From a virus (lineage: Duplodnaviria > Caudoviricetes), in the IMG/VR virus record IMGVR_UViG_3300033067_001029, positions 1 to 55,457 of that record: a stretch of DNA of 55,457 nt; one strand, given 5' to 3'. Below are positions 1,711-20,800 of the stretch, in pieces. A program made the translations under genes and the position numbers. The stretch's first letter is position 1, and each line of letters opens with the position of its first letter. The notes beneath the pieces were generated by a model. The model had not been told where the DNA came from and searched no databases. It saw only the letters and a program-made list of their open reading frames with translations.

Positions 1711-1738
1711 GGCGAGGATCCGCCGGAAAGGGACTTCG

Positions 1739-1981
1739 ATGCTGTTCGCGGAAGACCTCGGGCTCTGGCAGATCGTTCGTGACGGCGGCCCGTTCGTCGT
1801 GGCCTTCATCGCCCTCATCATCGGCGTCATCACCTTCTGGCGGATCGTCGGCAAGCCGTCCCTCGACGCGCTTTTGACGATCTCCGCGAACTTCGCCAGG
1901 GCTTCCGACAAGCTCGAACACAACACCAACCGCCTCGAAGCCGTCGCCGCCAAGATGGAGCAGCACCACTGTTCCGAGTAG
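1739..1981 (+). CDS. Small membrane protein (holin/antiholin-like)
   Basis: 80 aa, one hydrophobic segment (FVVAFIALIIGVITFW) followed by a coiled-coil tail. Confidence 0.5.
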   Translation: MLFAEDLGLWQIVRDGGPFVVAFIALIIGVITFWRIVGKPSLDALLTISANFARASDKLEHNTNRLEAVAAKMEQHHCSE

Positions 1982-1991
1982 GAGACCGAAG

Positions 1992-2225
1992 ATGCCGGGA
2001 AAGATCGACGACGTTCTCACCAGTTGGCTCGGGGCCTCGTACCGGACGAGCCTCGCGGGGTGGCTGACGGTTCTCGTGACCGTCATGCTCCTCTTCTCCG
2101 ACGAGCTTGGGCTCAACCCGGCCGTCCAGATGAAGATCAATCAGGCGATCATGCTCCTCACGGGCGGGGGCCTCATCATCGCCCGCGACAACAAGGTCAG
2201 TTCGGAACGCGCCGGGGCGAAGTAG
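1992..2225 (+). CDS. Holin-like protein
   Basis: 77 aa, two hydrophobic segments, charged C-terminus (ARDNKVSSERAGAK); AGGAGA RBS. Confidence 0.6.
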   Translation: MPGKIDDVLTSWLGASYRTSLAGWLTVLVTVMLLFSDELGLNPAVQMKINQAIMLLTGGGLIIARDNKVSSERAGAK

Positions 2226-2255
2226 CGCCGACGCGAGACCGCAAGGAGTCCTGCA

Positions 2256-2924
2256 ATGAAGACGACCGCTTTCGTCCTCTCTTTCGTCGCCCTGTTGCTC
2301 GGCGGGTGCGCGACCTCCGGGGTCGGCCGCGAGGCGTCGCAGGTCGGGGGAGACGTCCTCGACCAGAACCCGAAGCAGGTCAGCAACCGCCAGCAGGGGC
2401 CCGCGACGATCACCAGCGTTCGGTCCCGCTCCGCCGCGAAGACCCCGACCGGGCTCGAAGCCCTGACGGACAACAAGGGGGACGCGATCATCGAGGGGGA
2501 CGGATCGATCACCGTCTCCGGCGCGGCGACGAACCTGATCGAACTCGACCGGTCGGGGTTCTCGCAGGCCGGGACCGGGCCGAGCGGGCACGGCGCGGTG
2601 GTCGACCTCGGGGACGGGCAGTCGATGACGTTCTTCTCGTCGACCGCGACGACGACCCGCCGGACGAAGACGGTCGGCAAGGACGGGACGGTCAGCGAAG
2701 AGACGACGATCACCAGCGACCCAACGTCCCCCACCAAGGCGTACGGGGACTCGGTTCTCTCCCCGCTCCTCTCGTACTACAAGGGGCTCACGGAGGAGAA
2801 GCGGGCCGCGTTCGTCGCGGGCGTGCAGGCCAATAGCGAGCAGACGAAGGCGATCGTCGACAAGCTCGCGGGCCCCGATGCGTGGGCGTTCCTGACCTCC
2901 CTCGTCGCCCCCGTCGTGAAGTGA
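2256..2924 (+). CDS. Lipoprotein (possibly spanin-like)
   Basis: Signal peptide with lipobox LGGC; AAGGAG RBS; follows the holin-like genes. Confidence 0.6.
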   Translation: MKTTAFVLSFVALLLGGCATSGVGREASQVGGDVLDQNPKQVSNRQQGPATITSVRSRSAAKTPTGLEALTDNKGDAIIEGDGSITVSGAATNLIELDRSGFSQAGTGPSGHGAVVDLGDGQSMTFFSSTATTTRRTKTVGKDGTVSEETTITSDPTSPTKAYGDSVLSPLLSYYKGLTEEKRAAFVAGVQANSEQTKAIVDKLAGPDAWAFLTSLVAPVVK

Positions 2925-2951
2925 CCGCCGCACCGCCCACCGGAGCATCCC

Positions 2952-3791
2952 GTGAACGAAGACGTGCCCTCCCAGTCCTCGCCCGGCGCGAGGATCGAGC
3001 CCAAGTCCGTCGCCAAGGTCGTCACCCGCACCTTCTCCCCGTCGTACGAAACATCGATCGGCCTCCAGAACGGGGCGAGGATCGACCCCGTCCCCGCCCC
3101 GTGGGGGGAGAACCACGCGACGACGGTCTTCATGTCGAACTGGTGGCGGGACAACTTCGTCACGCCCGCATCGTGCATCACCTACGACAAGGCGGAGTCC
3201 CTTCGCACGGGCAAGATCTACATCCCCCGGGACAAGCCGTACCGGCTCGTGATGAACTTCGAGGACAGCCGGGACTCGTGGGCGGCGTGGCCGTTCGAGG
3301 AGATGGAGCGGTACCGGGACGAGATCAAGAAGGCGTACCCGCACCTGACGATCTCGGCGTACGTCGCTCAGGCGTACAACCTCCTCTCCGACTCGTCGAA
3401 GTTCGCGGTCTCCCGGATCGAGATGCTCCGGAAGTTCGCGTCCAAGTTCGACGAGATCAGCCCTTCGCTCTACTACCACGAAACGGACGATGTCACGGTC
3501 GACTGGTCGAAGGCCCCGGGGGAGGCCGTGCTTTCGATGCTTCCCCAGTGGCGGGTGATGCGGGTGTGGGAGCGGTCGATCGCCCCCGGCAAGCCCCTCT
3601 CCCCGTGCGTCTGGTGGTTCGTGACCCACCGGGGGTACAAGATCGTCACGCGGGACCAGTTCTGGAAGCTCCAGGTCGGGGCGGCCCGCTCCTCCCCGCA
3701 GGCGAAGTCGGTCATCCTTTGGGGGAACGTCGCGAGCCTCGGCGAGCAGCGCATCTTCGACGCCGGGGCCCGCCCGGTGATCTCCGGCTAG
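2952..3791 (+). CDS. Putative glycoside hydrolase, GH56/hyaluronidase-like TIM barrel
   Basis: LVMNFED, YPHLTISAY, ISPSLY and VILWG occur in the same order as the GH56 motifs (VIDWE, P..WG.Y, LYPSIY, IVIWG). Confidence 0.45.
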   Translation: MNEDVPSQSSPGARIEPKSVAKVVTRTFSPSYETSIGLQNGARIDPVPAPWGENHATTVFMSNWWRDNFVTPASCITYDKAESLRTGKIYIPRDKPYRLVMNFEDSRDSWAAWPFEEMERYRDEIKKAYPHLTISAYVAQAYNLLSDSSKFAVSRIEMLRKFASKFDEISPSLYYHETDDVTVDWSKAPGEAVLSMLPQWRVMRVWERSIAPGKPLSPCVWWFVTHRGYKIVTRDQFWKLQVGAARSSPQAKSVILWGNVASLGEQRIFDAGARPVISG

Positions 3792-3807
3792 TTTCCAGTA
3801 GAAACAA
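3791..3807. repeat. Dispersed palindrome GTTTC-N5-GAAAC, first of 15 copies
   Basis: Copies start at 3791, 10721, 14313, 17781, 23406, 27026, 29804, 31712, 35319, 39063, 40535, 43617, 45772, 50501, 53290. Confidence 0.9.
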
Positions 3808-3844
3808 GACGCGACCGGGACTCCCCCGGACCCGCTTGCCCAGG

Positions 3845-3875
3845 GTCGGCCGCGATTGCGGCCGACTTCCTTTTT
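3845..3875 (+). terminator. Rho-independent terminator
   Basis: GTCGGCCGC-gatt-GCGGCCGAC followed by TTCCTTTTT. Confidence 0.75.
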
Positions 3876-3904
3876 GTCTATAGTGGCCCGACCGGAGGTC
3901 CGTC

Positions 3905-4276
3905 ATGCCGAACCCGATCGCCTGGAAGAGTCCAAAGCGACCGTGTACCGCGAAGGTGTGCGGCCTCGTTGTTCCAAGGGCAATGGTCACGGAGCCCGGC
4001 CGGGACGTCGACGTCGAGGTCACGCCGTTCTGCGGCAAAGAGCCGTGCAGCATGACCGTGGCCGCGACCGAGCGGAGTTCAATCGACCAGCTCTGTCGTC
4101 AGGCGGAGATTGCCGCGTCGATCCAGCACGTCGAGCGCCGGGCGTGCAAAGAGTGCCACGAGGCGTTCTTCCATGAGCTTTCCCGGGACGAGAAGAGGTG
4201 GCTCTACGCGAGCGACCCGAAGCTCGGCCCGGTCATCGGCCTCAACGTTGAGGGGGATTCCGAGGGGGTCATCTGA
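3905..4276 (+). CDS. Hypothetical Cys-rich (Zn-binding) protein
   Basis: Several Cys pairs including CKEC; GGAGGT RBS. Confidence 0.6.
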   Translation: MPNPIAWKSPKRPCTAKVCGLVVPRAMVTEPGRDVDVEVTPFCGKEPCSMTVAATERSSIDQLCRQAEIAASIQHVERRACKECHEAFFHELSRDEKRWLYASDPKLGPVIGLNVEGDSEGVI

Positions 4277-4773
4277 TGCCCGCGACGTTTGCGGGCGAGA
4301 TCGAGAAGATCAAGGCCCGGTACGACCAAGAGAAGTGGAGGATGGGCGTCGCCCGTGGGCTCGCGTTCTGGCGCGAGTTCATCGCCGGGTGGGCGTCCGC
4401 CGCGACCGTCCTCCGGGCCCCGGCGTCCGCGTACGAGATCCCGGACGAGGTTGTCGCCGAGGGTGACCAGTCCGTCTTGTCTTGGGCGTGGTCGCTTGTC
4501 GAGCATGAGACGAACGCCGTCCTTCACGCCGTCGATCTCCGCACGCCGCTCCCGAGCGCCGTGATCGTCTCGCACTTCCGCGTCCTCTCCGGGAGCGGGC
4601 TCATCTTCCCGGACGGATCCGTGTGCTCGTTCGTGCTCCGCTCGATCGAGCGGACCCTTTCGGTCGAGGAGGCCAGGGACAACCGCACGATCGCGGAGTC
4701 GTCGATCGAGATGACGAAGCTCCGTCGGATGCTCTCCGAGAAGGCGGGGAGCCCCGGAAAGAAGAGGCGCTAG
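4276..4773 (+). CDS. Hypothetical protein
   Basis: TGATG stop/start coupling to the previous gene; typical codon usage. Confidence 0.6.
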   Translation: MPATFAGEIEKIKARYDQEKWRMGVARGLAFWREFIAGWASAATVLRAPASAYEIPDEVVAEGDQSVLSWAWSLVEHETNAVLHAVDLRTPLPSAVIVSHFRVLSGSGLIFPDGSVCSFVLRSIERTLSVEEARDNRTIAESSIEMTKLRRMLSEKAGSPGKKRR

Positions 4774-4776
4774 CCG

Positions 4777-5373
4777 ATGGACCCCCGCAAGGCCACTTAC
4801 CCGCTTCAGTGCTTGATCCCGTGCTGGCTTGGCGGGGAGGGGTTCATCTCCGGGTACCCTGTCCTCGCCGTAGTCCTCCGCGAGGCCGGGTCCGTCTCTC
4901 TCGGGCTCCACGCGCTCTTCGACCGGATCCGGAGCGCCCAGCCCAAGGGGGACGCCCAGCCGAGGCTCGTCGCGTTCATGGGGGACGAGCGGTATTTCGA
5001 CGATCAACTCCTCATGCTCGTTCGGATGCGGCTCTGCCTTCCCTGTTACGCCGAATACTGCGGGGAGCGGCCGATGACGGACCGCTTCGGGATCATGCCC
5101 CGGTGGGACCACGCAGCGATCCGCCTTCGCAACACCCGCGTGACCATGTCCGGCGGGCTCTTGTTCCACTCCGTGGTCGTCCCGGCCCCGGACCACCCCG
5201 GGGATCTCATCAGCCTTGGCAGGCAGATCGACCGCGCCGGGTTCAAGGTCTCCCGGTACGTCTCCGAGTCCGGGCGGTCCGACCAGTTTGACGCGAAGAT
5301 CGTCCGGGCCGCCGCCGGGTCCGGGTTCCGCCTCACCCGACCGCTCTCGAAAGAACCACTCCCCATTGCATGA
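4777..5373 (+). CDS. Hypothetical protein
   Basis: Fills the gap before terminase; ATGA overlap with terL. Confidence 0.55.
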   Translation: MDPRKATYPLQCLIPCWLGGEGFISGYPVLAVVLREAGSVSLGLHALFDRIRSAQPKGDAQPRLVAFMGDERYFDDQLLMLVRMRLCLPCYAEYCGERPMTDRFGIMPRWDHAAIRLRNTRVTMSGGLLFHSVVVPAPDHPGDLISLGRQIDRAGFKVSRYVSESGRSDQFDAKIVRAAAGSGFRLTRPLSKEPLPIA

Positions 5374-6833
5374 TCGGCCAGTCGTTTCATTCCCCGAAGG
5401 ACTTGCTCGGTTGCTCCCCGATCTCCCCTTTCGTTGAAGAGACGAAGGACGACGTCGAAGAGAGGGAGCCCCGGGAGTTTCACGTCCGCCCCAACAGCAT
5501 CCCGCAGTACGAGTTCGTCTCGGACCTTGAGACCCCGCTCGTTGCGGCGGTCGGCGGGATCGGCTCCGGGAAGACGACCGGGCTCGGGTTCTTCATCGTC
5601 GTGCAGATGTACGCCGAGATGGGGAGCGGGACGATCGGAGGCATCTTCGCGAACACCTACCGGCAGCTTGAGCAGACGACCCTCCCGGGCCTTTGGGCGG
5701 TCTTCGAGAGCATGGGCTTGGAGGACGGGATTGATTACGTCTACGGGCGCGAGCCCCCGAAGGACTGGGCTGGGTTCCGATCCCGGTTCAAGAAGCACAC
5801 GGGCGTGCTCTCCGTCCGCCAGTGGGGGCAGGCCGTTGTCCGTTCGCTGGAGAACTTCAACTCGATCCGTGGCCTCAACCTCGGCTGGGCCGCGATCGAC
5901 GAACTCCGGGACGCCCGGCACGAGGCTTTCCTCGTCGTCCTGGGCCGCGTCCGGTGCCCGAAGGCCCGCCGACGCCTGATCCGGATCGCGACGAGCCCGT
6001 GCGGGTTCAACTGGATCTATACCGAACTCGTTGAGAACGCCGAGAAGATGCCTCCGGGGGCGGAGCGGCGGGTCGTCTTCATGCCCACGTCGTGCAACCC
6101 CGACCTCCCACCGGAGTACAACGAGACCCTTCGGGCGTCCTTCGGGGGCAAGTACGCCCAGCAGGAACTCGACGGGATGTTCGTCTCGACGACCGTGGGC
6201 GCGGTCTACCACGCCTTCAAGCGGGCGACGATGGTCAACTCTTCGGTCAAGGCCGACCCCGAGCTTCCATTCCTCGTGACGTTCGACTTCAACCGAAACC
6301 CCTACTGCGTCGAGATCGCCCAGGCCCAGCCGAACGCCTTCGGGGTGGAACGGCTCGTGGTTCTCGACGAGGTCGTGATGACCGAGGTCGGCACCGAGGA
6401 CGTCGTGCCCGAGGTTGCGTCGCGGATCAAGTCCCATCTTCCCCCGGACGTGCGGCCGATCGTCGAGGTCTACGGGGACCCGGCGGGCAACCAGAAGCGG
6501 ACCTCGGCGTCGTCGAACCGGTCCGACTACGACATCATCGACATGGAAATGCCCAAGTACGTCGGCCGGTACATCCCGATGTACCGACGCCGGGCGTTCT
6601 CGGTGATGGAGACGGTCAACGCCGTCAACGCGCTCATGCGTCGCGGGGGGTTCGTGATTCACCCCCGGTGCCGGAAGACGATCAAGGACTTCGAGTCGGT
6701 GAAGTGGAAGGAGGGGACCTCCGAGATCGACAAGGAGGACAAGTCCCTCACCCACACGTCCGACGGGGTCCGGTACCTGATCGGAGAGCGGTACCCCATC
6801 CGGATCAGCCGCCCCAGCAAACTCTGGACGTGA
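5370..6833 (+). CDS. terL: Terminase large subunit
   Basis: Walker A GGIGSGKT, Walker B WAAIDE, coupling motif ATSP; nuclease motifs FDFN, YGDPAG, HTSDGVRY. Confidence 0.95.
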   Translation: MIGQSFHSPKDLLGCSPISPFVEETKDDVEEREPREFHVRPNSIPQYEFVSDLETPLVAAVGGIGSGKTTGLGFFIVVQMYAEMGSGTIGGIFANTYRQLEQTTLPGLWAVFESMGLEDGIDYVYGREPPKDWAGFRSRFKKHTGVLSVRQWGQAVVRSLENFNSIRGLNLGWAAIDELRDARHEAFLVVLGRVRCPKARRRLIRIATSPCGFNWIYTELVENAEKMPPGAERRVVFMPTSCNPDLPPEYNETLRASFGGKYAQQELDGMFVSTTVGAVYHAFKRATMVNSSVKADPELPFLVTFDFNRNPYCVEIAQAQPNAFGVERLVVLDEVVMTEVGTEDVVPEVASRIKSHLPPDVRPIVEVYGDPAGNQKRTSASSNRSDYDIIDMEMPKYVGRYIPMYRRRAFSVMETVNAVNALMRRGGFVIHPRCRKTIKDFESVKWKEGTSEIDKEDKSLTHTSDGVRYLIGERYPIRISRPSKLWT

Positions 6834-6848: not shown

Positions 6849-8768
6849 ATGCCGACGAAGAACCTCAACGCCCCAATGGCAAGCCCGCCCCGCGCGATCC
6901 CCTTGTCGAGCATGGCGGGGCAGAACAAGTCCGCGACGCCGACCGCCGCCGAGAAGCCCATCGCGCCCGGGGCGTCGGGCAAGAAGCTCTTCGTGATGGA
7001 GAACCTCCGCGAGCGGCGGATGATGTTCGACTTCCTCGAACTCTCGTACAAGGGCGGCCCCCGGTACAAGTACGGGAAGGACCCGAAGGGGCTCAACGTC
7101 CTCATCGAGCATGAGAACGAGCGGATCGACATCCTCGCGGGCGCGGACCGGATCCCCACGGCCGCCGACGTCGTCAACAAGAGCGAGTCCGCGCTCAAGA
7201 GCGACAAGTACAACCGCCGGACCCGGTCGGCGACGTACGTCAACTTCGTAAAGCCGGTCGAGGACAAGATCCACGCCTACGTCTTCTCGGTCCCGCCCTC
7301 CCGCCCGAAGAACGACAAGATCGACGCCCGGCTCCGCCAGATCAAGATCGACCAGAACATCGCCGAGATGCTCGCGGACGGTCTCCGCTTCGAGGAGGCG
7401 TGGATCGGCTTCGACGCGAAGAAGATCGTCCTGCCCGAAGGCCGTACGTCCTTGACGAAGGCGGAGGTCGAGGCCCAGGACCCGGAGTTCGGCGGGAACC
7501 CCTACATCGTCCGCGTTGACCCCAGGAACGTCGTCGACTTCTCCGAGGAGGGCGGGACGATCACCCGCGTGGTGATCGAGGAGCGGGTGAAGACGAAGGC
7601 GTCGATCTCGGAGCCCCCGACGACGACCACCTTCTTCCGGGAGTGGACGGACAAGACCTGGGCCCTGTACCGGCTCGACAAGAACGCCAACGGGGAGGAG
7701 GAGTTGGTCTTCGTGGAGGGGTCTGTCCACGAGTTCGGGTGCTGCCCGTTCACGCGGGTCTGCGTCCCGTTCCCGACCGAGGATATCTGCGATCTCAACC
7801 GCCAGCACTTCAACGTGGGCTCGCTGCTCGACGAGGAGATGTACCAGAACACCTTCTCCCAGCGGGTCATCACGGGCGTCAAGGCGGAGGACGTCAAGAC
7901 GACGGACCGGGGCGCTGGAAACACGATCGTGCTCCCGGACACCGAGTCCCGGGTCACGCTTGTCTCCGGGGACCCCGCCCAGTCCGCCGCGCTCATGGAC
8001 CGGCTCGCCCGGATCCAGCAGTCGATCTTCGAGCTGGTCTCCCTCAACGCCGTCAACCGGAACGTCGCGGAGTCCGCCGAGAAGAAGAAGCGGGACCTTG
8101 AGCCCCTCTACTCGACCCTCAGCAAGATCGCGGAGATCGTCGAGCGTGCCGAGAACTGGCTCCTCATCGCGATGGAGATCTACGCGAAGGACGACGATTC
8201 TCAGCGGACGAAGTACAGCCGCAAGTTCGACATCTACAGCATCGACGACCTCATCTCGCAGATCGCGGAACTCGGCAAGGCGTCCTTCGCTCCCCCCTCC
8301 CTCAAGCGCCGCCTCTCCCTCGCGCTGGCGCAGAAGATCGACCCCTTCGGCCCGCACACCGAGTACGAGGCCGAGGTCGAGAAGATGTTCGACGCCAACC
8401 CGTCGATCGTCGACTCGATGATGAGCCTCAAGCGGGAGGGGTGCCTCACCCCGGCGATGCTCGTCGAGACCCTCGGGGTGCCCCCGAGCCTCGCCGTCGA
8501 GTTGGTCGAGATCATGGATCACCCGGACCCCGAGCCCTCGGACCCCTCGGCCCCGGGCGGACAGTCCGGATCGGAGGTCGGCGAAGATGCGATGCCTGAT
8601 ATGCCGGGCGGTAGCGGCAATGGCCCGAAGGGCGGCGGAGATCCTTCGGGGTCCGGGGCGACCCCCGAGGCCGACGGCGGGGCCAGCGGACCCGCCGAGA
8701 AACCCAACCCCGGAACGGGCAAGGCTGGCCGCGTTCGACGCCGCAAGGCCGGGGGCGGCGGCCAGTAG
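6849..8768 (+). CDS. Portal protein
   Basis: Directly after terL; 639 aa; NFVKPVEDKIHAYVF, HEFGCCPF and AESAEKKK resemble portal motifs; disordered C-terminal tail. Confidence 0.85.
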   Translation: MPTKNLNAPMASPPRAIPLSSMAGQNKSATPTAAEKPIAPGASGKKLFVMENLRERRMMFDFLELSYKGGPRYKYGKDPKGLNVLIEHENERIDILAGADRIPTAADVVNKSESALKSDKYNRRTRSATYVNFVKPVEDKIHAYVFSVPPSRPKNDKIDARLRQIKIDQNIAEMLADGLRFEEAWIGFDAKKIVLPEGRTSLTKAEVEAQDPEFGGNPYIVRVDPRNVVDFSEEGGTITRVVIEERVKTKASISEPPTTTTFFREWTDKTWALYRLDKNANGEEELVFVEGSVHEFGCCPFTRVCVPFPTEDICDLNRQHFNVGSLLDEEMYQNTFSQRVITGVKAEDVKTTDRGAGNTIVLPDTESRVTLVSGDPAQSAALMDRLARIQQSIFELVSLNAVNRNVAESAEKKKRDLEPLYSTLSKIAEIVERAENWLLIAMEIYAKDDDSQRTKYSRKFDIYSIDDLISQIAELGKASFAPPSLKRRLSLALAQKIDPFGPHTEYEAEVEKMFDANPSIVDSMMSLKREGCLTPAMLVETLGVPPSLAVELVEIMDHPDPEPSDPSAPGGQSGSEVGEDAMPDMPGGSGNGPKGGGDPSGSGATPEADGGASGPAEKPNPGTGKAGRVRRRKAGGGGQ

Positions 8769-8830: not shown

Positions 8831-10720
8831 ATGGCGAAGCGTCCGTCCATCCCGACTCTCGCCGGGGACATCCTTGACCTCCGGGCCCGCCTGATCGCCC
8901 GTGAACAGCGGATCGAGTCCGAGGTCTACGCGATCCTCCAGTCGATGCTCGACGAGTGGGAGCGGGAGGTCCGCCGGATCCTTGGTGGCGGGTACCGTGG
9001 CACGGTCGAGAGCGCCGTCGCGGGCCGCCGGGCCGTCCTGCTCGGGAGTCTCCGAAAGATCACCGAGCGGGAAGTCCAGGCCGTGCTGGGGATCCTCGGC
9101 TCGGAGGTCGCCGGGGTCTACCGGGACAACGTGTACCGGGTCGCCTCCGCCCTCTCCGGGATGCGGGCCGCGTCGATGACGTCGTCCTCCGTGTCCTTCG
9201 CCGCGATCGACACCCCGGCGATCAAGGCGGCGCTTGCGCGCAAGATTCCCGCGATCTCCGAGCTTCGGGCGATCGCCGCGATCCCGGCCCGAGTTGAGAG
9301 CCTCATGCGGAAGGACCTCGCCCGGGCGATCGCGGACGGGTACCGGGTCGACCAACTGGTCTCCCAGTGGAAGAACCGGGTCGGGGCCGGGGCGACGGTC
9401 CCGCAGGTCCGGGCGCTCGCCCGCACGGCCGTCATGACGGCCTCGAACAACGCCCACCTCGACACCTACCGCAAGAACCGGGCCCTTGTGCCCCGCGTGC
9501 GGTGGGAGGCGACCTTCGACCGGAGGACGTGCATGCGGTGCGGGTCGCTCCACGGGAGGGAGTTCACCCTTGCCGACGCCCCGCCGATCCCGGCGCACCT
9601 CAACTGCATCCTCCCGGGGAACCTCGTCTTACGGGCTTCTGTTCTTGCCGCCGCGAAGTCTCTGTATCGAGGCCGCGTCGTTGAAGTACGAACGGAGGGT
9701 GGGTGCCGGATCTCCGTTACCGAGAAGCACCCGGTACTGACTTCTCGTGGATGGATACGCGCGTCGGAGGTCCGCCGAGGAGATGATCTGGTCAACCACC
9801 CCGGGTCCGAGCGGGAATCTTCGGGGGTCGACCCACACGATCACAATGTCCCAACCGCGATCGAGGAGGTATTTCGTTCGCTTGAAGAATCGGTCGGCGT
9901 GGGCTCCGCTCGCGTGCCACTTTCCCCCGAAGACCTCCACGGCGACGCGGACGGGGTCGAGGGAGAAGTCCACGTTGTATGGGCCGACGGCGGCGTTCCG
10001 GGTGTGGGGCACACCTCGGGCCGCGAGCATTTCCGAGACCGCTTCCTCGATCGGGCTGCGATGATCGAGGGAACGGAGCCTCTGCCTTCCGGTCGCGATC
10101 TTGATGCGATGCTCGAACGACTGAGGCTTTCCGCGTACCGCGTTATGGGCGGCCTCGGTGAGTCGGAGTCGCTCGGCCTTGGTCGCCTTCGCCATGCGTG
10201 TGAACATTGCGGCGGACCTGTTTCTCGGAACTACTCCGTTGGCGATCAGTCTGCGTCGGATAACGCCCCTATCGCACCCGAAGAGTTTCGCGATCGACTG
10301 CTCGCTCTCCCCTGCGGCGTATCTCTTGATTGCGTCGTCGACGTCGATCACTCTTCGTACTCGGGGCATGTCTACGACCTCCAGACGGTTTCGGGGACGA
10401 TCAACTGCGGTGGAGTGATTATACACAACTGCCGGTGCGTCCTGCTGCCCGTCTTCGCGGACCCGTCGCTCAACTCGGCCGTCCACGGCATCGGGGCGTA
10501 CCAGTCCCCGACGGGCGGCACCTACTTCCGCAACAAGGACCGCGACTTCGAGAAGTTCCTCCGGTCCCGGACGCCGGACTTCCGGGCGGACTTCTTCCCG
10601 TCGGAACTCAAGCGGAAAGCCTTTGAGTCCGGCCGCCTGTCGCTGGCCGACATGATCTCCCGGGACGGTTCGATCAAGACCGACGCCGAGGTCCTCCGCC
10701 TTCTTCGCCGACGACCGTAG
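8831..10720 (+). CDS. MuF/SPP1 gp7-like head morphogenesis protein, intein-containing
   Basis: RALARTAV, WEATFDRRTCMRC.LHG, and a PAHLN/CRC motif interrupted by the intein. Confidence 0.9.
   Translation: MAKRPSIPTLAGDILDLRARLIAREQRIESEVYAILQSMLDEWEREVRRILGGGYRGTVESAVAGRRAVLLGSLRKITEREVQAVLGILGSEVAGVYRDNVYRVASALSGMRAASMTSSSVSFAAIDTPAIKAALARKIPAISELRAIAAIPARVESLMRKDLARAIADGYRVDQLVSQWKNRVGAGATVPQVRALARTAVMTASNNAHLDTYRKNRALVPRVRWEATFDRRTCMRCGSLHGREFTLADAPPIPAHLNCILPGNLVLRASVLAAAKSLYRGRVVEVRTEGGCRISVTEKHPVLTSRGWIRASEVRRGDDLVNHPGSERESSGVDPHDHNVPTAIEEVFRSLEESVGVGSARVPLSPEDLHGDADGVEGEVHVVWADGGVPGVGHTSGREHFRDRFLDRAAMIEGTEPLPSGRDLDAMLERLRLSAYRVMGGLGESESLGLGRLRHACEHCGGPVSRNYSVGDQSASDNAPIAPEEFRDRLLALPCGVSLDCVVDVDHSSYSGHVYDLQTVSGTINCGGVIIHNCRCVLLPVFADPSLNSAVHGIGAYQSPTGGTYFRNKDRDFEKFLRSRTPDFRADFFPSELKRKAFESGRLSLADMISRDGSIKTDAEVLRLLRRRP
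9629..10369 (-). CDS. Antisense HTH + NUMOD3-like + Vsr/DUF559 endonuclease nested in the intein (246 aa)
   Basis: SPIEEAV...GPYNVDF...VAVEVFGGKWH...RTKYLLDRGWDIVIVW; GGAGGT 7 nt before the ATG; TATAAT at 10423-10418. Confidence 0.85.
   Translation of the reverse strand: MPRVRRVIDVDDAIKRYAAGESEQSIAKLFGCDRGVIRRRLIANGVVPRNRSAAMFTRMAKATKAERLRLTEAAHNAVRGKPQSFEHRIKIATGRQRLRSLDHRSPIEEAVSEMLAARGVPHTRNAAVGPYNVDFSLDPVRVAVEVFGGKWHASGAHADRFFKRTKYLLDRGWDIVIVWVDPRRFPLGPGVVDQIISSADLRRAYPSTRSQYRVLLGNGDPAPTLRSYFNDAASIQRLRGGKNRSP
10377..10423 (-). promoter_or_regulatory. Antisense -10 box and Shine-Dalgarno for the nested endonuclease
   Basis: + strand ATTATA (10418-10423) reads TATAAT on -; ACCTCC (10377-10382) reads GGAGGT; no consensus -35. 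Confidence 0.7.
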
Positions 10721-10786
10721 GTTGTTTCTGCTAGAAACAACGACCGCCCGCGTGACGCCGTGGGCGACCCGTGGTAGGATTGCCGC

Positions 10787-11320
10787 ATGACCACCCTCGA
10801 CTCGACGAAGTCGTCCTCCGCCGCGAACTCGTACGTCTCCACCGTGGACGAGGCGAACGGGTACGCCGCGACGATGAAGGCCCTCGCCGGGCTCGGGGTC
10901 GACACGTCTGGGTGGGATTCCGTCAACGACGCCATCAAGACCGAGGCCCTTGTCCTCGCCGCCCGCTCGATCGACACGATCGAGTACGCCGGGGAGAAGG
11001 TGACCGAGGAGCAGTCGATGGAGTTCCCCCGGGTCTTCATGAAGAAGATCGTCGACGAGGACGAGATCCCGGACGCCGTGAAGATGGCCCAAGTCGCGGA
11101 GGCGTGCGCCCTGCTCTCCGCCTCCGCGACGGACCCGGTCGCCCGGGCGGTCTCCCGGGGGATCACGTCCGAGAGCGCCGGGGGAGTCTCGTTCACGGTC
11201 GGCAAGGGTGCGAAGAACTCCGCCGCCGACCGGGGGGTGTCCCAGCCCGCGTTTGATATTCTCCGCAAGGCCGGACTGATCCGCCCGGCCGCGACCTCGG
11301 TCTACAACGGCCGGGGGTAA
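10787..11320 (+). CDS. DnaT-like head-tail adaptor/completion protein
   Basis: ANSYVS..EA..Y, QSMEFPR and IPDAVKMAQ motifs. Confidence 0.75.
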   Translation: MTTLDSTKSSSAANSYVSTVDEANGYAATMKALAGLGVDTSGWDSVNDAIKTEALVLAARSIDTIEYAGEKVTEEQSMEFPRVFMKKIVDEDEIPDAVKMAQVAEACALLSASATDPVARAVSRGITSESAGGVSFTVGKGAKNSAADRGVSQPAFDILRKAGLIRPAATSVYNGRG

Positions 11321-12253: not shown

Positions 12254-12328
12254 CGGGGCGTAACTGGTTGGGCCGGGGGCGTCAGAGTGTTCTGGCGCAC
12301 GGCCCCCGACCCAAACGGAGTTCAAGAC

Positions 12329-13225
12329 ATGCCGAACGCCATCACCGCCTACGACCCGACCATCTGGAGCAAGCAGGGCATCGCCATCCTGCACGAGAAG
12401 ATCGCGATCCCGAAGCTCTGCCGCCTCGACTTCCAGAACGACCTTGCCCAAATGGGTGACGTCGTGAACACCCGGAAGCCCGCGATCATGACCGCTTCCG
12501 ACGTCGACGACGACAACGGGATCAGCGCCCAGACCCTCTCGGCGACGAACGTCGCGGTCACGCTCAACAACCACAAGCACGCGACCTTCAAGATCAAGGA
12601 CCGCGAGGCGTCCCGGTCCGTCGCGAACCTGATGACCGAGTACATGGAGCCCGCGATGCTCGCGGTCGCCAACGTCCTCGACAAGTCCCTCCTCGCCCTC
12701 TACACCGACGCCTCCAAGCTCATCTCCGTCTCGTCCGCCAACAACTGGCTCTCGCAGGTCACGGCGGCCCGGACGCAGCTCAACAAGAACAAGGCCCCCG
12801 ATGGCAACCGCGTCCTGATCCTCTCCGACGACGACGAGGGCGCTCTCGTCGGCATGGACATCCTGACGAAGGCCAACGAGCGGGGCGACCCCAACGGCCT
12901 CCGTGAGGGGTACCTCGGCCGCGTGCGCGGGTTCGAGACGTACCGCTCCTCGAACATCCTCGGTGCCGGTTCGCCCACGACCCGCCACAACCTCGCCATG
13001 CACAAGGACGCGATCGCCCTCGTCACCCGCGTGCTCTCGACGGCGACGGGCCGCACGGCCGGGGCGGAGCAGATGGTCGCCACCGACCCCGACGCGGGCC
13101 TCTCCCTCCGCGTGACGATCTCCTACCAGCACAACGTCTTCTCGACGATGGTGTCGGTCGACCTGCTCTACGGGGTGAAGACCCTCGACTCGAACCTGCT
13201 CGTGCAGCTCAAGTCGACCTTCTGA
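12329..13225 (+). CDS. Major capsid protein (P22 coat-like, HK97 fold)
   Basis: PTIWSK, GDVVNTRKP, L.KNKAP..NR, G.LGRVRGF and DLLYGVKTL motifs; start placed at the ATG after GGAG. Confidence 0.9.
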   Translation: MPNAITAYDPTIWSKQGIAILHEKIAIPKLCRLDFQNDLAQMGDVVNTRKPAIMTASDVDDDNGISAQTLSATNVAVTLNNHKHATFKIKDREASRSVANLMTEYMEPAMLAVANVLDKSLLALYTDASKLISVSSANNWLSQVTAARTQLNKNKAPDGNRVLILSDDDEGALVGMDILTKANERGDPNGLREGYLGRVRGFETYRSSNILGAGSPTTRHNLAMHKDAIALVTRVLSTATGRTAGAEQMVATDPDAGLSLRVTISYQHNVFSTMVSVDLLYGVKTLDSNLLVQLKSTF

Positions 13226-17781: not shown

Positions 17782-17806
17782 TTTCCAGTAGAAACAAGGG
17801 CAAGGC

Positions 17807-20800
17807 ATGTCGACGAACATCGGGACGATCAACGTGGTGTTTCAGGCCGACGTCGCGACGGCTGTCGCCGGGCTCCGGTCCCTCTCGCAGCAGTTGGACG
17901 CCTCGATCGCAAACTCTGTTGCCCGGTCCAACCAGTTCTCCTCCGCCGTGTCGTCGATGTCGAACAACCTCGCCGCCTCGATCGCCAAGACCGCAAGCGG
18001 GGCCCAGGGGTTCTCGAACACGGTGACGTCGTCCTTCGGGCAGATCCCCGCCCGGCTCGGGTCGGTCGTCTCTCAGATCACCCGGAGCGGGAACGCCCTC
18101 AACGGATCGCTCGGGACGATCGCCGGGCAGTTGACCCTCACGGTCGATCAGGCCACGCAGAAGACCCGGAACCTCGCCGGGGCCTTCTCGTTCCTGACCT
18201 CCGCCGTCGCTGCGTTCTCCCTCAAGTCCTTCATCGACGCCGTGGGGACGTACGACCAGCAGCTTGAGGCCGTCCGGGTGCTGACCCGGGAAACGGCGGT
18301 GGAGTTCAAGGCGACCCGCGAGGCCGTGCTTGCTCTCGCTCAGGGATTGCAGGTCTCGGCGGTCGACGTCGCGAAGGGGCTCAACGAGATCGTGCAGGCC
18401 GGGTTCACCGCTTCGGACGGGCTCAAGGTTCTCGAAGCGTCGATCAAGGCGTCGAAGGTCGGGCTGACGTCGACCGCCGTCGCCTCCTCGGCGCTCATCC
18501 AGACCCTGAACGCCTTCGGGATCTCCGCCGGGGACTCGGAGGCCACGGTCGGGAAGCTCGTCCGGGCGGTCGACCTCGGCGTGTTCTCCTTCGAGCGTCT
18601 CGCGACGAACATCGGTCAGGCGGCCCCGCTCGCCGCGACGATCGGGGTTCGGCTCGAAGAACTGCTCGCCCTCTTCACCGCCCTCACCCGCAAGGAGGCC
18701 AACCTCGACGAGGTCACCACGCAGGTCCGGGCGTCCTTCTCCGACCTCCTCGCCCCTTCGGACCGGGCCCGCGCCGCGATGGAGAAGGTGCTCGGGACGA
18801 CGGTCGAGGCGTCGGTCCGCACCCGTGGGTTCACCGAGACCCTCCGGGCGCTGATCTCCTCCGCCGACGGGTCGGCCGCCGCCCTCGCCAATATGTTCCC
18901 GAACATCCGGGCTATGGCCGGTCTCGCGAAGCTCGCCGGGGATGGGTTCGGAGAGTTTACGACGGACATCGCCAAGCTGGAGAACGCCTCGGTGGGCTCG
19001 CTCAACCGGGCTCTCTCGGTGGCGAACAAGTCCTTCGGGAACCTCGTCAACCAGATCAAGGCCACGGCCGCGAACTCCCTCATCGACTACTTCGAGCGGA
19101 ACCGGGCCTCGTTCATCACCTACGCCGAGGCGGTCGATTCGTTCCTCCGCCGAAACCCGGACCTGCTCGCGAACATCGCCAAGGCCGCCGTGACCTTCGC
19201 GGCCCTGGCGACCGCCGTGGGCGTGGCTCGGATCGCCGTCTCTGCGCTCACGCTGGCGATCGGGGCCCTCTCCACCGCCGGGGCCGCGATCCGGTTCATC
19301 TTCTCCGGGCAGGCGATTACCGCGCTGACCGCGTATATCGACCGGTTCGACCTTCTGCTTGCCCGGTTCTCCGCCTTCTCCGGGCTGGCCTCGAAGACCC
19401 CCGCCGTCGTCCAGCAGGCCGTGAACGCCCAGCAGGCCGCCGCCTCCGCGTCCGCCGCGTACGCAAAGGCGACCGCCACGGCCACGGCCGCGTCCAACGC
19501 CGCGATCGCGGCGTCGCAGGGCATGGCGAACGCCCGCAAGGCCGAACTCGCCGCCGAGAACGCGCTCATCCTCTCGAAGCAGCGTCAGGCGGTCGCGGAC
19601 GCCCGGGTCGCCGGGCTCACCTTGGCCGCGTCGAACCGGAACCCGGTCACCGGGCAGTTCAAGTCCGCAAGCCAGTCCGCCGCGAACCTCCTCCCGTCCG
19701 CCGCGAAGGACCTCGCCGCCGCGAACCGCGAGGTCGCGGTATCGACCGCCGCCCTTTCCGCCGCCGAGGCCGCCCGCACGGCCTCCGTCTCCCGGGCGAC
19801 CGTGGCCTCGACCGCCCTCGCCGCCGCCAACGCCGAGGTTGCCACGACGTCCGCCGCCGCCACGGCCGCGACCAGCGCCGAAGCCGCCGCGATGGCACGC
19901 CTGACCGCCGCGACCGGGTCCGCCGCCGGGGCTCAGGCCGCGCTGGCGAGCGCGACCGCCGCCACGGCCACGTCCTCCGGGGCCTCGGTCATTTCCGCCG
20001 TCACGACCCGGATCGGGGTCTTCGGGTCCGCCGCCGCGTCCGCCGCGAAGAACCTCGGGGTGCTCGCCCTCGCGAGTTCGGTCTTCGTCCTCAAGGCCGC
20101 CGCCGTGGCCGCCGCCGCCGGTCTGGTCGGGTTCGGCATCGGGAAGATCGTCGAGAACGTGCTGGAGTTCTTCGGGATCATTGAGGAGCGGTCCGGGCTC
20201 CAGACCGCGTCCGACGCCCTTCTCGACCTTGCGGAGAGCCAGAAGAAGTTCAACGAGGAGGTCAACCGGGCGGAGTTCGCGAAGAAGATCTCCGAGGGGG
20301 AGAAGGCCGCCGCGAACTTCGCTGAGCGGCTCCAGAACCTCGCCGACCTCGCCCGCTCCGCCGCCGCCGGGAACGAGGAGTCGGCCCGGAAGTTCGCCGC
20401 CCTGTCCCGTGAGTTCGAGCGGGACGGGGGGAAGTCGGGCGTCTCCCGGCTCCTCGACCAACTCAAGAAGCAGTACGGGGACCTCTCGGTGGAGGTCCAG
20501 CGGGCGATCGACAAGCAGGTCGAACTGGGGGATCAGGGCGTGCAGGGGCTTGCCCGCGTCGACGCCGCGACCGGGAAGGTCATCGGCACGACGGCGAACC
20601 TGCTGACCGTCCTCACGGCCGCGTTCGGGGAGGTCCGGGCCCGTGAGGTCGTCTCGCAGTTGACCGAGATCGAAACGCAGATGAAGAACGTGCAGGCCGC
20701 GACCGCCGCGTACGCCTCCGCGACGTTCGACCTCCGGAACAAGAACATCTCCCTCGCCGCCGCGATCAAGGAGGCCGCGAAGACGGTCGGCGAGTACACC

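What the first reader, a model, noticed from the sequence alone, without database searches (positions are those of the whole stretch)
9605..10429. Intein whose homing endonuclease is encoded on the antisense strand
Seen: a 275-aa intein splits the MuF HxNCRC motif and has intact splicing blocks, but its central region shows no LAGLIDADG or HNH motif. The opposite strand, in codon register and entirely within the intein, encodes 246 aa (10369-9629) with an HTH, a NUMOD3-like segment (RGKPQSFEHRIKIA) and a Vsr/DUF559 PD-(D/E)XK domain (SPIE..YNVDF..VEVFGGKWH..GWDIVIVW). It is the only credible minus-strand gene in the window. Known: intein endonucleases are normally in-frame domains, and Vsr-like EDxHD enzymes can act as homing endonucleases. 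Inference: this is a double-coded mobile element in which the sense frame splices and the antisense frame mobilises, so the nuclease can be expressed independently of the late MuF gene.
Basis: partly seen in the sequence, partly recalled or inferred. Interest (0 to 1): 0.97.

Follow-up and report, generated by a model that had tools for sequence, protein, structure and literature searches.

The report
Intein with antisense homing-endonuclease gene
A phage head-assembly gene carries a self-splicing protein insert whose middle is really a nuclease gene read from the opposite DNA strand; the finding is real, but this arrangement was already reported for related phages in a 2025 preprint.

Summary
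Window 8831-10720 (+) is a MuF minor-capsid gene with a 275-aa intein (9605-10429). Its reverse strand, in codon register, encodes a 246-aa protein (10369-9629).

That protein is a real gene of an HTH + Vsr/EDxHD-like homing-endonuclease family:
- It has 27 called homologs.
- It folds confidently (pLDDT 83), and its best PDB matches are I-Bth0305I and Vsr.
- tblastn finds it in 129 phage records.
- In all 27 embedded loci I opened, it is intact, antisense and in register inside a MuF intein. This includes phages of 35-52% GC, where chance openness is 1e-3 to 2e-9.

In eight Jersey-like MuF genes, substitutions in the intein centre fall on sense position 1, which is antisense position 3 (121/22/50). 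In the exteins they fall on sense position 3 (138/87/469). The sense centre has no confident fold (pLDDT 25-40).

Among Jersey-like phages the element is present or precisely absent, and it is more conserved than its host gene.

The architecture is not new. Gosselin, Arsenault and Gogarten (bioRxiv 2025) describe anti-sense VSR-like endonucleases in actinobacteriophage minor-capsid inteins.

Expression, cleavage and splicing remain untested. For this high-GC window, antisense openness alone is not significant (P about 0.5).

The parts
8831..10720 (+). MuF-like minor capsid (head morphogenesis) precursor gene, 629 aa including the intein
   Evidence: Pfam Phage_Mu_F 48.2 bits (cut-off 29.6). 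TIGR01641 51.8 bits (cut-off 39.65). It lies between the portal gene (6849-8765) and the head-tail adaptor gene (10787-11317).
8831..9604 (+). N-extein (aa 1-258), ending ...PAHLN
   Evidence: GC3 is 0.93, typical of this genome.
9605..10429 (+). Intein, 275 aa: C1, block B TEKH, block F GHVYDL, terminal HN, followed by C+1
   Evidence: Intein_splicing 36.9 bits, cut-off 35.8. Sense GC3 drops to 0.65 exactly within these bounds.
9605..9808 (+). N-terminal splicing (Hint) part, intein aa 1-68. It is overlapped on the other strand by the endonuclease C-terminus.
   Evidence: In this part the sense frame is the more conserved one in 10 of 11 comparisons with the window. AF2 pLDDT is 50-81.
9809..10315 (+). 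Sense read-through of the centre (intein aa 69-237): an open frame with no confident fold, the shadow of the antisense gene
   Evidence: AF2: residues 117-238 are all below pLDDT 50, with block means of 25-44 from residue 121 on. GC1 0.775 > GC3 0.645. Antisense identity exceeds sense identity in 11 of 11 comparisons.
10316..10429 (+). C-terminal splicing part (blocks F, G), intein aa 238-275
10430..10720 (+). C-extein, beginning CRCVLLP
   Evidence: GC3 0.92.
9629..10369 (-). Antisense homing-endonuclease gene, 246 aa + TAA. The stop is the reverse complement of sense Leu codon TTA at 9629-9631.
10367..10369 (-). Start codon ATG, the reverse complement of the His codon CAT of intein block F (GHVYDL)
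   Evidence: The same start context, (L/F)E(V/I)(V/I)(D/N/H)M, is printed for 22 of the 27 embedded loci. The other five print other or ambiguous starts: L001, L009, L012, L029, L030.
10378..10382 (-). Shine-Dalgarno-like GGAGG, 8 nt before the ATG, the reverse complement of the block F Asp-Leu-Gln codons
   Evidence: GAGG or AAGG stands at the same place in L001-L004.
10235..10342 (-). Helix-turn-helix DNA-binding region of the endonuclease (aa 10-45)
   Evidence: Weak Pfam HTH hits. AF2 helices with pLDDT 93-94. Profile match to 2lvs at 7.8e-6.
9710..10057 (-). Vsr/EDxHD-like nuclease domain (aa ~105-220), with D134 (9968-9970), E145 (9935-9937) and H152 (9914-9916)
   Evidence: Foldseek 3r3p 7.5e-5 and 1cw0 2.8e-4. 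Profile 3hrl 5.4e-7 and 3r3p 3.3e-5 with residue alignment. N132 and D134 are invariant and E145 is >=90% conserved in 28 sequences.

Best explanation
The window's MuF head-morphogenesis gene carries a mobile intein built from two genes on opposite strands of the same DNA.

Sense strand: the late MuF mRNA is translated through the whole 275-aa insert. Its two ends (aa 1-68 and 238-275) form the Hint splicing domain. The 169-aa middle is only an open, unstructured loop. The intein then excises itself and restores the HLN-CRC motif of MuF.

Antisense strand, in codon register: a 246-aa protein is translated from an ATG that is the reverse complement of the block F histidine codon, 8 nt after a GGAGG. 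It has an N-terminal helix-turn-helix, a helical linker with the motif AAHxAVRGK, and a Vsr/EDxHD-type nuclease domain with D134, E145 and H152.

Proposed mechanism: in a cell co-infected by a relative that lacks the intein, this nuclease cuts near the empty CACCTCAAC|TGCCGGTGC site. Recombinational repair then copies the intein and nuclease in.

Shown here: the anatomy, the family, the predicted fold, purifying selection on the antisense frame in relatives, recoding that keeps both frames open, and precise presence/absence with horizontal transfer among Jersey-like phages.

Inferred: transcription of the antisense strand, cleavage, target site and splicing.
For: 1. Family. 27 called homologs at 36-91% identity. 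N132 and D134 are invariant; E145 and R164 are >=90% conserved. 1,850 cluster representatives match at E<=1e-30.

2. Fold. AF2 mean pLDDT 83.2, with 132 of 246 residues >=90. All 4 PDB matches at E<=0.001 are I-Bth0305I (3r3p, two chains) or Vsr (1cw0, 1vsr). The profile matches 3hrl at 5.4e-7 and 3r3p at 3.3e-5. YNVDF...VAVEVFGGKWH aligns on WNVAF...LAIEVNGVYWA of the crystal construct, which carries D196A and H213A.

3. Conserved architecture. tblastn finds 129 phage records, 108 with >=80% coverage. In 19 of 20 GenBank loci opened, the match lies inside a MuF or head gene, on the strand opposite to it. With 7 IMG/VR or metagenome loci and the window, 27 of 27 embedded copies are intact and in register. 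Chance openness is 1e-3 to 2e-9 in the 35-55% GC cases.

4. Selection.
- Eight Jersey/Kaguna genes: exteins 138/87/469 substitutions at sense positions 1/2/3, against 121/22/50 in the intein centre (chi2 p 4.5e-31). Single-base codon changes in the centre: 114 nonsynonymous-sense/synonymous-antisense against 24 of the reverse kind.
- Five further pairs aligned on the sense protein show the same direction in 5 of 5.
- Window against 11 others: antisense identity exceeds sense identity in the centre in 11 of 11. The sense frame is the more conserved in the Hint-N overlap in 10 of 11.

5. Free-standing control. The homolog in Acinetobacter phage P1068 uses TTA/CTA/TCA 12 times in 39 Leu/Ser codons. 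Six embedded genes checked use none (P 2e-4 to 1e-10).

6. Sense centre. AF2 gives pLDDT 25-40.

7. Mobility. 386 records hold the Jersey MuF gene. 58 cover >=80% of it, and in the spread listing most others cover ~55% in two pieces. wksl3 has a precise empty site. The intein is 95% identical against 83% for the whole gene between BPS11Q3 and Snoke.

8. In the window itself. GC3 falls from 0.93 to 0.65 exactly within the intein, and antisense GC3 is 0.775.
Against: - All Pfam and NCBIfam nuclease hits of the window's protein are below curated cut-offs.
- In this high-GC window an open antisense frame is expected by chance (P 0.53).
- No DNA of close relatives was obtainable, so selection was not measured in the window's own lineage. 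The 36 of 233 read differences that were shown are uninformative: in run X4, 5 synonymous against 8 nonsynonymous in the antisense frame, and 6 against 7 in the sense frame.
- No sigma-70-like promoter was found on either strand in 9300-10900, and none on the endonuclease strand upstream of the gene in BPS11Q3.
- Jersey-like members have Ala where the window has H152, the presumed general base. Family members may therefore differ in chemistry or activity.
- The two AF2 runs used unequal alignments (28 against 8 sequences).
- The alignment was built on the antisense proteins and leans that way. One search, built on sense proteins, counters this.
Confidence: 0.8

Rival explanations
1. The architecture is as described, but in this particular phage the antisense gene is a silent or decaying relic. 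The intein is now inherited vertically, and the frame stays open only because stop-forming codons are rare at 67% GC.
For: P(open by chance) is 0.53 for the window. No promoter was found. The shown subset of differences to close relatives has no synonymous excess in the antisense frame. The preprint reports that some VSR-like intein groups look vertically inherited.
Against: D134, E145 and H152 are intact. The called relatives at 57-91% identity (P0004-P0008) are all of near-full length, 241-300 aa. The fold is confident. The window against 11 distant relatives keeps the antisense frame better conserved in the centre, 11 of 11. In one other metagenome run, contigs nearly identical to the window's exteins go with an intein piece that differs at 25 of 457 bases, which suggests allele turnover.
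Confidence: 0.1
2. The antisense protein is real and selected, but its job is not homing. It might be a DNA-binding regulator, a repair-type nickase, or a nuclease used against competing phages or host defences.
For: Cleavage has never been tested for this subfamily. Jersey-like members lack the His aligned with the general base. There are weak partial matches to nuclease domains of defence proteins: NCBIfam ProA at 1.9e-5 and PADLOC PDC-S37 at 3.7e-3.
Against: - The gene sits inside an intein, in register, in 27 of 27 embedded loci, and travels with it to at least three MuF sites.
- The element shows precise presence/absence and is more conserved than its host gene.
- The nearest solved relative is a proven homing endonuclease.
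- The free-standing copy sits directly beside an intein-less MuF gene.
- The defence matches cover only the shared nuclease fold.
Confidence: 0.08
3. The sense-frame centre is the functional domain (a new in-frame endonuclease or linker), and the antisense ORF is a compositional shadow.
For: PHROG 15127 matches the sense insert at aa 16-231 (1e-23). The sense motif HGD..GEV.VV is conserved.
Against: Substitutions in the centre fall on sense position 1, not 3. The sense centre has pLDDT 25-40 and no Pfam domain. The antisense protein folds and matches known nucleases. A free-standing homolog exists with 12 or more stops in every opposite-strand frame. The conserved sense motif is the mirror of the nuclease active site YNVDF...VAVEV.
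Confidence: 0.02

Closest known systems
Inteins with anti-sense VSR-like homing endonucleases in actinobacteriophage minor capsid proteins (Gosselin, Arsenault & Gogarten, bioRxiv 10.1101/2025.01.02.630785, version of 2025-10-20; I read the abstract, sections 8 and 15, and passages)
   Same: A full (not split) intein, a VSR-like nuclease encoded on the opposite strand, and a minor capsid/MuF host gene. The predicted nuclease matches 3R3P and 1CW0, and the sense middle has no recognisable fold. Gordonia phages appear among my hits.
   Different: - The window's host is unknown.
- The preprint surveys PhagesDB actinophages only. Its main text contains none of the words 'Salmonella', 'synonymous', 'ribosom' or 'promoter'.
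[quoted passage not shown] Here the ORF starts inside block F and its last ~60 codons overlap blocks A-B.
Fractured genes: split inteins with a free-standing Vsr-like endonuclease gene between the halves (Dassa et al. 2009, PMC2677866; passages read)
   Same: A Vsr-like homing endonuclease sits in the middle of an intein, mainly in phages. There is an invariant Glu at the position of Vsr Phe62, which corresponds to E145 here.
   Different: There, all three coding regions are on the same strand and the intein is split by stops. Here the nuclease is antisense and the intein stays one continuous reading frame. The host genes there are DNA-metabolism enzymes, not MuF.
I-Bth0305I, prototype of the EDxHD homing endonucleases (Taylor et al. 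2011, PMC3239194; passages read; PDB 3R3P)
   Same: It is the best structural match. The WNVDF...AIEV..G..WH core aligns with YNVDF...AVEV.GG.WH. It also has an N-terminal DNA-binding part plus a C-terminal nuclease.
   Different: I-Bth0305I is encoded in a group I intron of recA, on the sense strand. Sequence identity is 17-18% over ~100 columns. Here the N-terminal region is HTH repeats, not a NUMOD match.
Anti-sense LAGLIDADG endonucleases in inteins (Gorbalenya 1998; Gogarten et al. 2002; known to me only as cited in the preprint)
   Same: The endonuclease is encoded on the strand opposite the intein.
   Different: The nuclease family and the host genes differ (dnaX, a SpoVR-like gene, terminase). 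I did not read the original papers.
Canonical inteins with in-frame LAGLIDADG or HNH domains
   Same: A Hint splicing domain interrupted between blocks B and F by the mobility module, inserted at a conserved motif of an essential gene.
   Different: The nuclease is not part of the intein polypeptide, so it is not made by translating the host gene.

Membership tests
Intein (Hint splicing domain, class 1) | N-terminal Cys/Ser; block B TxxH; block F; C-terminal His-Asn; Cys/Ser/Thr at +1 | tested here: met
   C1, T39-E-K-H42, GHVYDL, H274-N275 and C+1 are present. Pfam Intein_splicing scores 36.9 bits against a cut-off of 35.8.
Intein (Hint splicing domain, class 1) | Insertion in frame, with intein-less alleles collinear with the spliced product | tested here: inconclusive
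   Shown for the homologous Jersey-like intein: wksl3 reads PPAHPN|CRSS against BPS11Q3 PPAHPN|[intein]|CRST. No intein-less allele of the window's own MuF was found.
Intein (Hint splicing domain, class 1) | Protein splicing activity | not testable with these tools
   Inferred only, from intact catalytic residues and from the need for a functional MuF.
Vsr-like / EDxHD homing endonucleases | Vsr-type nuclease fold | tested here: met
   Foldseek: 3r3p E 7.5e-5 (TM 0.65 on the target), 1cw0 2.8e-4. Profile: 3r3p 3.3e-5, 1cw0 5.7e-3.
Vsr-like / EDxHD homing endonucleases | Catalytic Asp (Vsr D51), Glu at the Vsr F62 position, His general base (Vsr H69) | tested here: met
   In the window, D134, E145 and H152 align with the mutated D196A, the E and the mutated H213A of the 3r3p construct. 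D134 is invariant and E145 is >=90% conserved. The His is Ala in Jersey-like members.
Vsr-like / EDxHD homing endonucleases | Second Asp of the EDxHD motif (Vsr D97) | tested here: inconclusive
   D170 in LLDRGW is a candidate, but it is Asn in several members. No residue-level alignment reached it.
Vsr-like / EDxHD homing endonucleases | Site-specific cleavage of the element-less allele | not testable with these tools
   No assay was possible. The candidate site is CACCTCAAC|TGCCGGTGC.
Pfam DUF559 (PF04480) / MTES_1575 (PF18741) / Vsr (PF03852) | Score at or above the curated gathering cut-off | tested here: not met
   18.8 against 20.6, 29.8 against 38.2, and 16.5 against 27. Several homologs carry precomputed PF18741 or PF04480 hits.
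NUMOD3 DNA-binding motif | Match to the Pfam NUMOD3 model | tested here: not met
   No NUMOD family appears at E<=1. The motif AAHxAVRGK is conserved but unassigned.
Fractured gene arrangement (Dassa 2009) | Intein split into two ORFs, with the endonuclease on the same strand between them | tested here: not met
   There is a single uninterrupted 629-aa ORF, and the nuclease is on the opposite strand.
Non-canonical intein with anti-sense VSR-like HEN (Gosselin et al. 2025) | Full intein, VSR-like nuclease ORF on the antisense strand of the intein, minor capsid host gene | tested here: met
Non-canonical intein with anti-sense VSR-like HEN (Gosselin et al. 2025) | Actinobacteriophage host | not tested
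   The window is an IMG/VR virus record of 67.7% GC with no host named. Relatives occur in phages of Proteobacteria and Campylobacterota as well as Actinobacteria.
MuF / SPP1 gp7 minor capsid protein | Pfam Phage_Mu_F or TIGR01641 above the cut-off; position after the portal gene | tested here: met

The most novel reading that the evidence does not exclude
This is one ancient, cross-phylum mobile module in which splicing and mobility cannot be separated.
- The nuclease's start codon and ribosome-binding site are hard-wired as the reverse complement of the intein's conserved block F (H-V-Y-D/N-L-E/Q).
- About 50 codons are structured in both proteins.
- The nuclease gene is recoded to avoid TTA/CTA/TCA.
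- The module has moved between at least three sites in MuF and between phages of Actinobacteria, Gamma-proteobacteria and Campylobacterota.
- It went unannotated in all 19 embedded GenBank loci that I opened.

If the nuclease is expressed early from its own antisense promoter, it would also be an intein endonuclease whose timing is uncoupled from its late host gene.
Probability: 0.5. Interest if true: 0.6.

Novelty: new member of a known kind. Interest (0 to 1): 0.45.

Why it matters
It is a clean natural case of two functional proteins encoded on opposite strands of the same codons. It supports the 'splicing first, nuclease invades later' view of intein origins.

The practical point is annotation. 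None of the 19 embedded GenBank loci I opened lists the nuclease gene, although it is under purifying selection and present in at least 129 phage records. These include well-used Salmonella, E. coli and Pseudomonas phages.

The arrangement offers a neat experimental handle. Sense-synonymous changes to TTA, CTA or TCA create stops only in the nuclease, so mobility and splicing can be separated without touching MuF.

For the window itself the result is a further example, not a new kind.

Tried and rejected
- DNA search of the intein against phages (blastn): no match, so protein-level searches were needed.
- Genome-contig scan with P0001: 190 pattern hits, none confirmed.
- Viral contigs and metagenome-contig scans: only distant relatives (32-43% identity). 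A codon-level selection test in the window's own lineage was therefore impossible.
- The search for homologous proteins with the sense intein: 4 distant hits, none from the contigs of the close antisense homologs.
- Sequencing runs: no RNA holder listed.
- Read laying on 4 runs: contigs only. Only 40 of 233 differences were shown, of which 36 lie in the intein. Classified, they show no clear preference for either frame. I treat this as uninformative because the shown subset is selected by support. No contig joined across the intein.
- Promoter scans: nothing in the window or in BPS11Q3 upstream of the nuclease gene. One promoter-like site in Aaphi23 (1556-1583) lies about 29 nt before the ATG, but the count does not exceed the shuffles. 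It is a lead only.
- Rfam on 9000-11000 at E<=1: nothing, so a group I intron or other known RNA was rejected.
- PADLOC: only marginal partial hits, so a defence-system reading was rejected.
- Pfam and PHROG on the possible second minus-strand gene 1053-1685 and its neighbours: no hits, unresolved.
- Literature searches: searches found nothing on antisense intein endonucleases. Searches found the 2025 preprint. One search, with passages of PMC6776784 and PMC8425127, shows that the Jersey/Kaguna intein is known but the passages seen do not mention the antisense gene. The preprint's supplements (lists of phages and clusters) were closed and may name relatives that I treat as unreported.
Full report
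WHAT IS THERE

The window is a 55,457-base IMG/VR virus record of 67.7% GC. Nearly all its genes are on the + strand:
- terminase large subunit 5292-6830
- portal 6849-8765
- the gene in question 8831-10720
- head-tail adaptor 10787-11317
- major head protein 12287-13222
- tape measure 17792-22357
- DNA polymerase 31713-35096

Gene 8831-10720 is a MuF/SPP1-gp7 minor capsid gene. Pfam Phage_Mu_F scores 48.2 bits against a cut-off of 29.6, and TIGR01641 scores 51.8 against 39.65. Between AHLN and CRC it holds a 275-aa insert, 9605-10429, that starts with Cys and ends with His-Asn before Cys. It scores above Pfam's cut-off for the intein splicing domain, 36.9 against 35.8. No LAGLIDADG, HNH or NUMOD model matches at E<=1.

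The reverse strand from 10369 to 9629 gives 246 residues and a stop. Its codons are in register with the sense codons, so sense position 1 is antisense position 3.

IS THE ANTISENSE FRAME MORE THAN CHANCE?

Not by openness. At this GC content the minus strand is open for 1335 codons here. From the rarity of TTA, CTA and TCA in the exteins (1 of 384 codons), 246 open codons have a chance of about 0.53.

What is beyond chance is the protein itself.
- Pfam gives three related nuclease families on the same stretch, aa ~106-180: MTES_1575 at E 6.4e-7, DUF559 at 1.5e-3 and Vsr at 7.8e-3. All are below the curated cut-offs.
- The protein collection holds 27 called homologs at 36-91% identity, mostly on ~1-kb contigs. 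Some carry PF18741 or PF04480, and some are named very-short-patch-repair endonuclease by their source.
- In the 28-sequence alignment, S22, R49, E108, N132 and D134 are invariant. E145, R164 and the AAHxAVRG motif are at least 90% conserved.
- A profile of that alignment finds 1,850 cluster representatives at E<=1e-30 among 1.84 billion.

FOLD

With that alignment, AlphaFold gives mean pLDDT 83.2, with 132 of 246 residues at 90 or more. Only the last 22 residues are low.

Of 601 Foldseek matches in the PDB, four have E<=0.001:
- two chains of the I-Bth0305I homing endonuclease catalytic domain (3r3p, 7.5e-5 and 1.7e-4)
- two Vsr entries (1cw0, 1vsr)

The family profile against PDB sequences gives:
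- a DUF559-type 'endonuclease-like protein', 3hrl, at 5.4e-7
- a tandem-HTH protein, 2lvs, at 7.8e-6 on the N-terminal part
- 3r3p at 3.3e-5
- 1cw0 at 5.7e-3

In the printed alignment, YNVDF...VAVEVFGGKWH lies on WNVAF...LAIEVNGVYWA. The paper on I-Bth0305I says the crystal construct carries D196A and H213A. The window's D134, E145 and H152 therefore sit at the catalytic Asp, the family's Glu and the general-base His.

The sense intein was folded with 8 sequences. It reaches only mean pLDDT 44.9. Residues 117-238 are all below 50, with block means of 25-44 from residue 121 on. The two ends reach 50-81. The alignments were of unequal depth, so this comparison is supportive rather than decisive.

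THE SAME ARCHITECTURE ELSEWHERE

tblastn of the 246-aa protein against 50,697 phage records finds 129 records, 108 of them covering at least 80% of the query, all below 60% identity. By organism: Salmonella 64, Gordonia 15, Pseudomonas 15, Klebsiella 8, Escherichia 6, Vibrio 4, Acinetobacter 3, Haemophilus 2, Aggregatibacter 2, Edwardsiella 2 and 7 more.

I opened 20 of these records.
- In 19 the match lies inside a gene annotated as head morphogenesis, MuF, minor capsid or hypothetical protein, on the strand opposite to it.
- In none of the 19 is a CDS annotated in the nuclease frame. vB_StyS-sam has a short ORF on that strand, but in another frame.

Seven distinct IMG/VR and metagenome loci show the same arrangement.

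Counting the window, 27 of 27 embedded copies have both frames open and the nuclease in codon register. The chance of an open antisense frame is 0.17-0.53 in five high-GC cases. It falls to 1e-3 to 2e-9 in the phages of 35-55% GC.

In the printed start contexts, 22 of the 27 nuclease ORFs begin with M after (L/F)E(V/I)(V/I)(D/N/H). This is the reverse complement of the intein's block F, H-V/I-Y/F-D/N-L-E/Q. In the window the ATG is the complement of the His codon CAT, and a GGAGG stands 8 nt upstream. GAGG or AAGG stands at the same place in four other loci.

The intein is not always at the same codon. Phage KMB36 has it about 20 residues upstream in MuF (…SRTSTT|C…N|CRARD). One IMG/VR contig has it two codons downstream (NCR|C) in a portal-MuF fusion.

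WHICH FRAME IS UNDER SELECTION?

Eight Jersey/Kaguna MuF genes of equal length allow a direct count. Minimum substitutions at sense positions 1/2/3:

| Region | Position 1 | Position 2 | Position 3 |
|---|---|---|---|
| Two exteins | 138 | 87 | 469 |
| C-terminal splicing part | 5 | 1 | 18 |
| N-terminal splicing part (overlaps the nuclease C-terminus) | 23 | 14 | 37 |
| Intein centre | 121 | 22 | 50 |

Centre against exteins gives chi-square p 4.5e-31.

Among single-base codon differences in the centre:
- 114 are nonsynonymous in the sense frame but synonymous in the antisense frame
- 24 are the reverse
- 26 change both
- 6 change neither

Five further pairs from other lineages were aligned on the sense protein, which favours the sense frame. 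They give the same direction in 5 of 5. In the centre, position 1 exceeds position 3 and antisense identity exceeds sense identity. In the exteins the opposite holds.

For the window itself against 11 distant relatives, in an alignment built on the antisense proteins:
- The centre is 21-45% identical in the antisense frame and 15-28% in the sense frame. Antisense is higher in 11 of 11.
- In the overlap with the N-terminal splicing part, the sense frame is the more conserved in 10 of 11.

Within the window, GC at sense position 3 is 0.93 and 0.92 in the exteins. It drops to 0.65 exactly across the intein, where position 1 (antisense position 3) is 0.775. This marks a compositionally foreign element whose centre reads as a gene on the other strand.

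A CONTROL FROM A FREE-STANDING COPY

In Acinetobacter phage P1068 the homolog is an annotated, free-standing 297-aa gene. It converges on, and overlaps by 7 bases, the end of a short intein-less MuF gene that still has the …MCKCR… motif.
- It uses TTA, CTA or TCA for 12 of its 39 Leu/Ser codons, and its opposite strand has 12 or more stops in each frame.
- Six embedded nuclease genes from phages of 35-52% GC use none of these codons. In their own exteins these codons make up 21-42% of Leu/Ser codons, giving P of none between 2e-4 and 1e-10.

The embedded genes are thus recoded so that MuF stays readable.

MOBILITY

A megablast of the BPS11Q3 MuF gene finds 386 phage records. 58 cover at least 80% of the gene. 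In the spread listing, most others cover about 55% in two pieces spanning ~1,040 bases, which is the length without the intein. The classical phages Jersey, SETP3, SE2 and wksl3 are among them.

wksl3 reads …PPAHPN|CRSS…, collinear with the spliced product. The 60-base bin around the site is the most divergent between the two alleles: 0.78 against 0.93 overall.

Between Salmonella phage BPS11Q3 and E. coli phage Snoke the intein is 95.2% identical and the whole gene 82.7%. By arithmetic this puts the exteins near 73%. The Snoke announcement also notes a nearly identical intein in LSPA1 and its absence in K1ind2 (passages).

These are the marks of a homing element. They are shown for the Jersey-like branch, not for the window's own lineage. 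For that lineage I obtained no close DNA except short contigs. In one run, both exteins are nearly identical to the window (1 difference in 358 bases and 3 in 279), while an intein piece differs at 25 of 457 bases.

WHAT IS KNOWN

- Dassa et al. 2009 described 'fractured genes': split inteins with a Vsr-like endonuclease gene between the halves, all on one strand.
- Taylor et al. 2011 showed that I-Bth0305I, of that family, is a homing endonuclease with a Vsr fold.
- Gosselin, Arsenault and Gogarten (bioRxiv 2025; abstract, sections 8 and 15, and passages read) survey PhagesDB. They report full inteins with LAGLIDADG or VSR-like endonucleases on the anti-sense strand. They state that minor-capsid inteins were exclusively non-canonical. 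They match the VSR-like one to 3R3P and 1CW0 and find no fold in the sense middle.
- They cite Gorbalenya 1998 and Gogarten 2002 for earlier anti-sense LAGLIDADG cases. I did not read those papers.

The kind of element is therefore already described, and the window is a further member.

The following are not in the preprint's main text as far as my word searches show (supplements closed):
- occurrence outside actinophages
- codon-level evidence of selection
- the start signals built into block F
- the recoding control

VERDICT

Transcription of the antisense strand, cleavage, target site and splicing are inferred.

The weaknesses are:
- sub-threshold family hits for the window's protein
- no promoter found
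- no RNA data
- no selection test in the window's own lineage
- loss of the aligned His in Jersey-like members

I rate it a new member of a known kind, of moderate interest.

Noticed in passing
window 1053-1685 (-): This stop-to-stop frame of 211 aa has gene-like codon composition (GC1 0.63 > GC2 0.45, GC3 0.97). The overlapping + frame 1-1707 has 0.55/0.53/0.95. There is no Pfam or PHROG hit for either frame.
   Followed up: partly
L028 (Acinetobacter phage P1068) 1633-2526 (+), beside MuF 2520-3296 (-): A free-standing, annotated homolog of the nuclease converges on and overlaps by 7 bases the end of a short, intein-less MuF gene that keeps the CKCR motif. It is a possible picture of the state before the nuclease entered an intein.
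   Followed up: partly
L012 (E. coli phage vB-Eco-KMB36) MuF 805-2775 (-); L009 (IMG/VR contig) 2818-6378 (-): The same intein-plus-antisense-nuclease module sits at other MuF codons. In KMB36 it lies about 20 residues upstream (SRTSTT|C...N|CRARD). In L009, a portal-MuF fusion, it lies two codons downstream (NCR|C).
   Followed up: partly
L030 (Rhodococcus phage REQ3) minor head protein 1312-3090 (-): The intein here appears to begin with Ala (…HPN|AVLEGSTF…) instead of Cys. Its antisense ORF is short (about 181 aa) and lacks the N-terminal HTH region.
   Followed up: no
window 9258-9615, 9770-10226, 10442-10720 against run X2: Contigs of another metagenome run are nearly identical to both exteins (1 difference in 358 bases and 3 in 279) but differ at 25 of 457 bases inside the intein. 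This suggests a different intein allele in an almost identical phage.
   Followed up: no
L005, L007, L008, L022, L023, L033 and others: The nuclease carries a variable number of N-terminal HTH repeats, and its length runs from 181 to 394 aa. The intein grows with it, from 269 to 416 aa. The sense translation of these extra repeats looks like low-complexity filler.
   Followed up: no
L031 (phage Aaphi23) 1556-1583 (+): A sigma-70-like site (CTTACA, 16 nt, TATAAT, with TG; 10 of 12) lies on the nuclease strand about 29 nt before the nuclease ATG, inside the intein's C-terminal coding part. The number of sites in the region does not exceed the shuffles, so this is a lead only.
   Followed up: no
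GenBank records MT677934.1 and MZ560703.1: Two Salmonella phage records label this intein-bearing MuF gene 'NAD+--asparagine ADP-ribosyltransferase'. Other records call it a structural, tail or hypothetical protein. The annotation of this gene is inconsistent, and vB_StyS-sam lists two short ORFs inside it.
   Followed up: no
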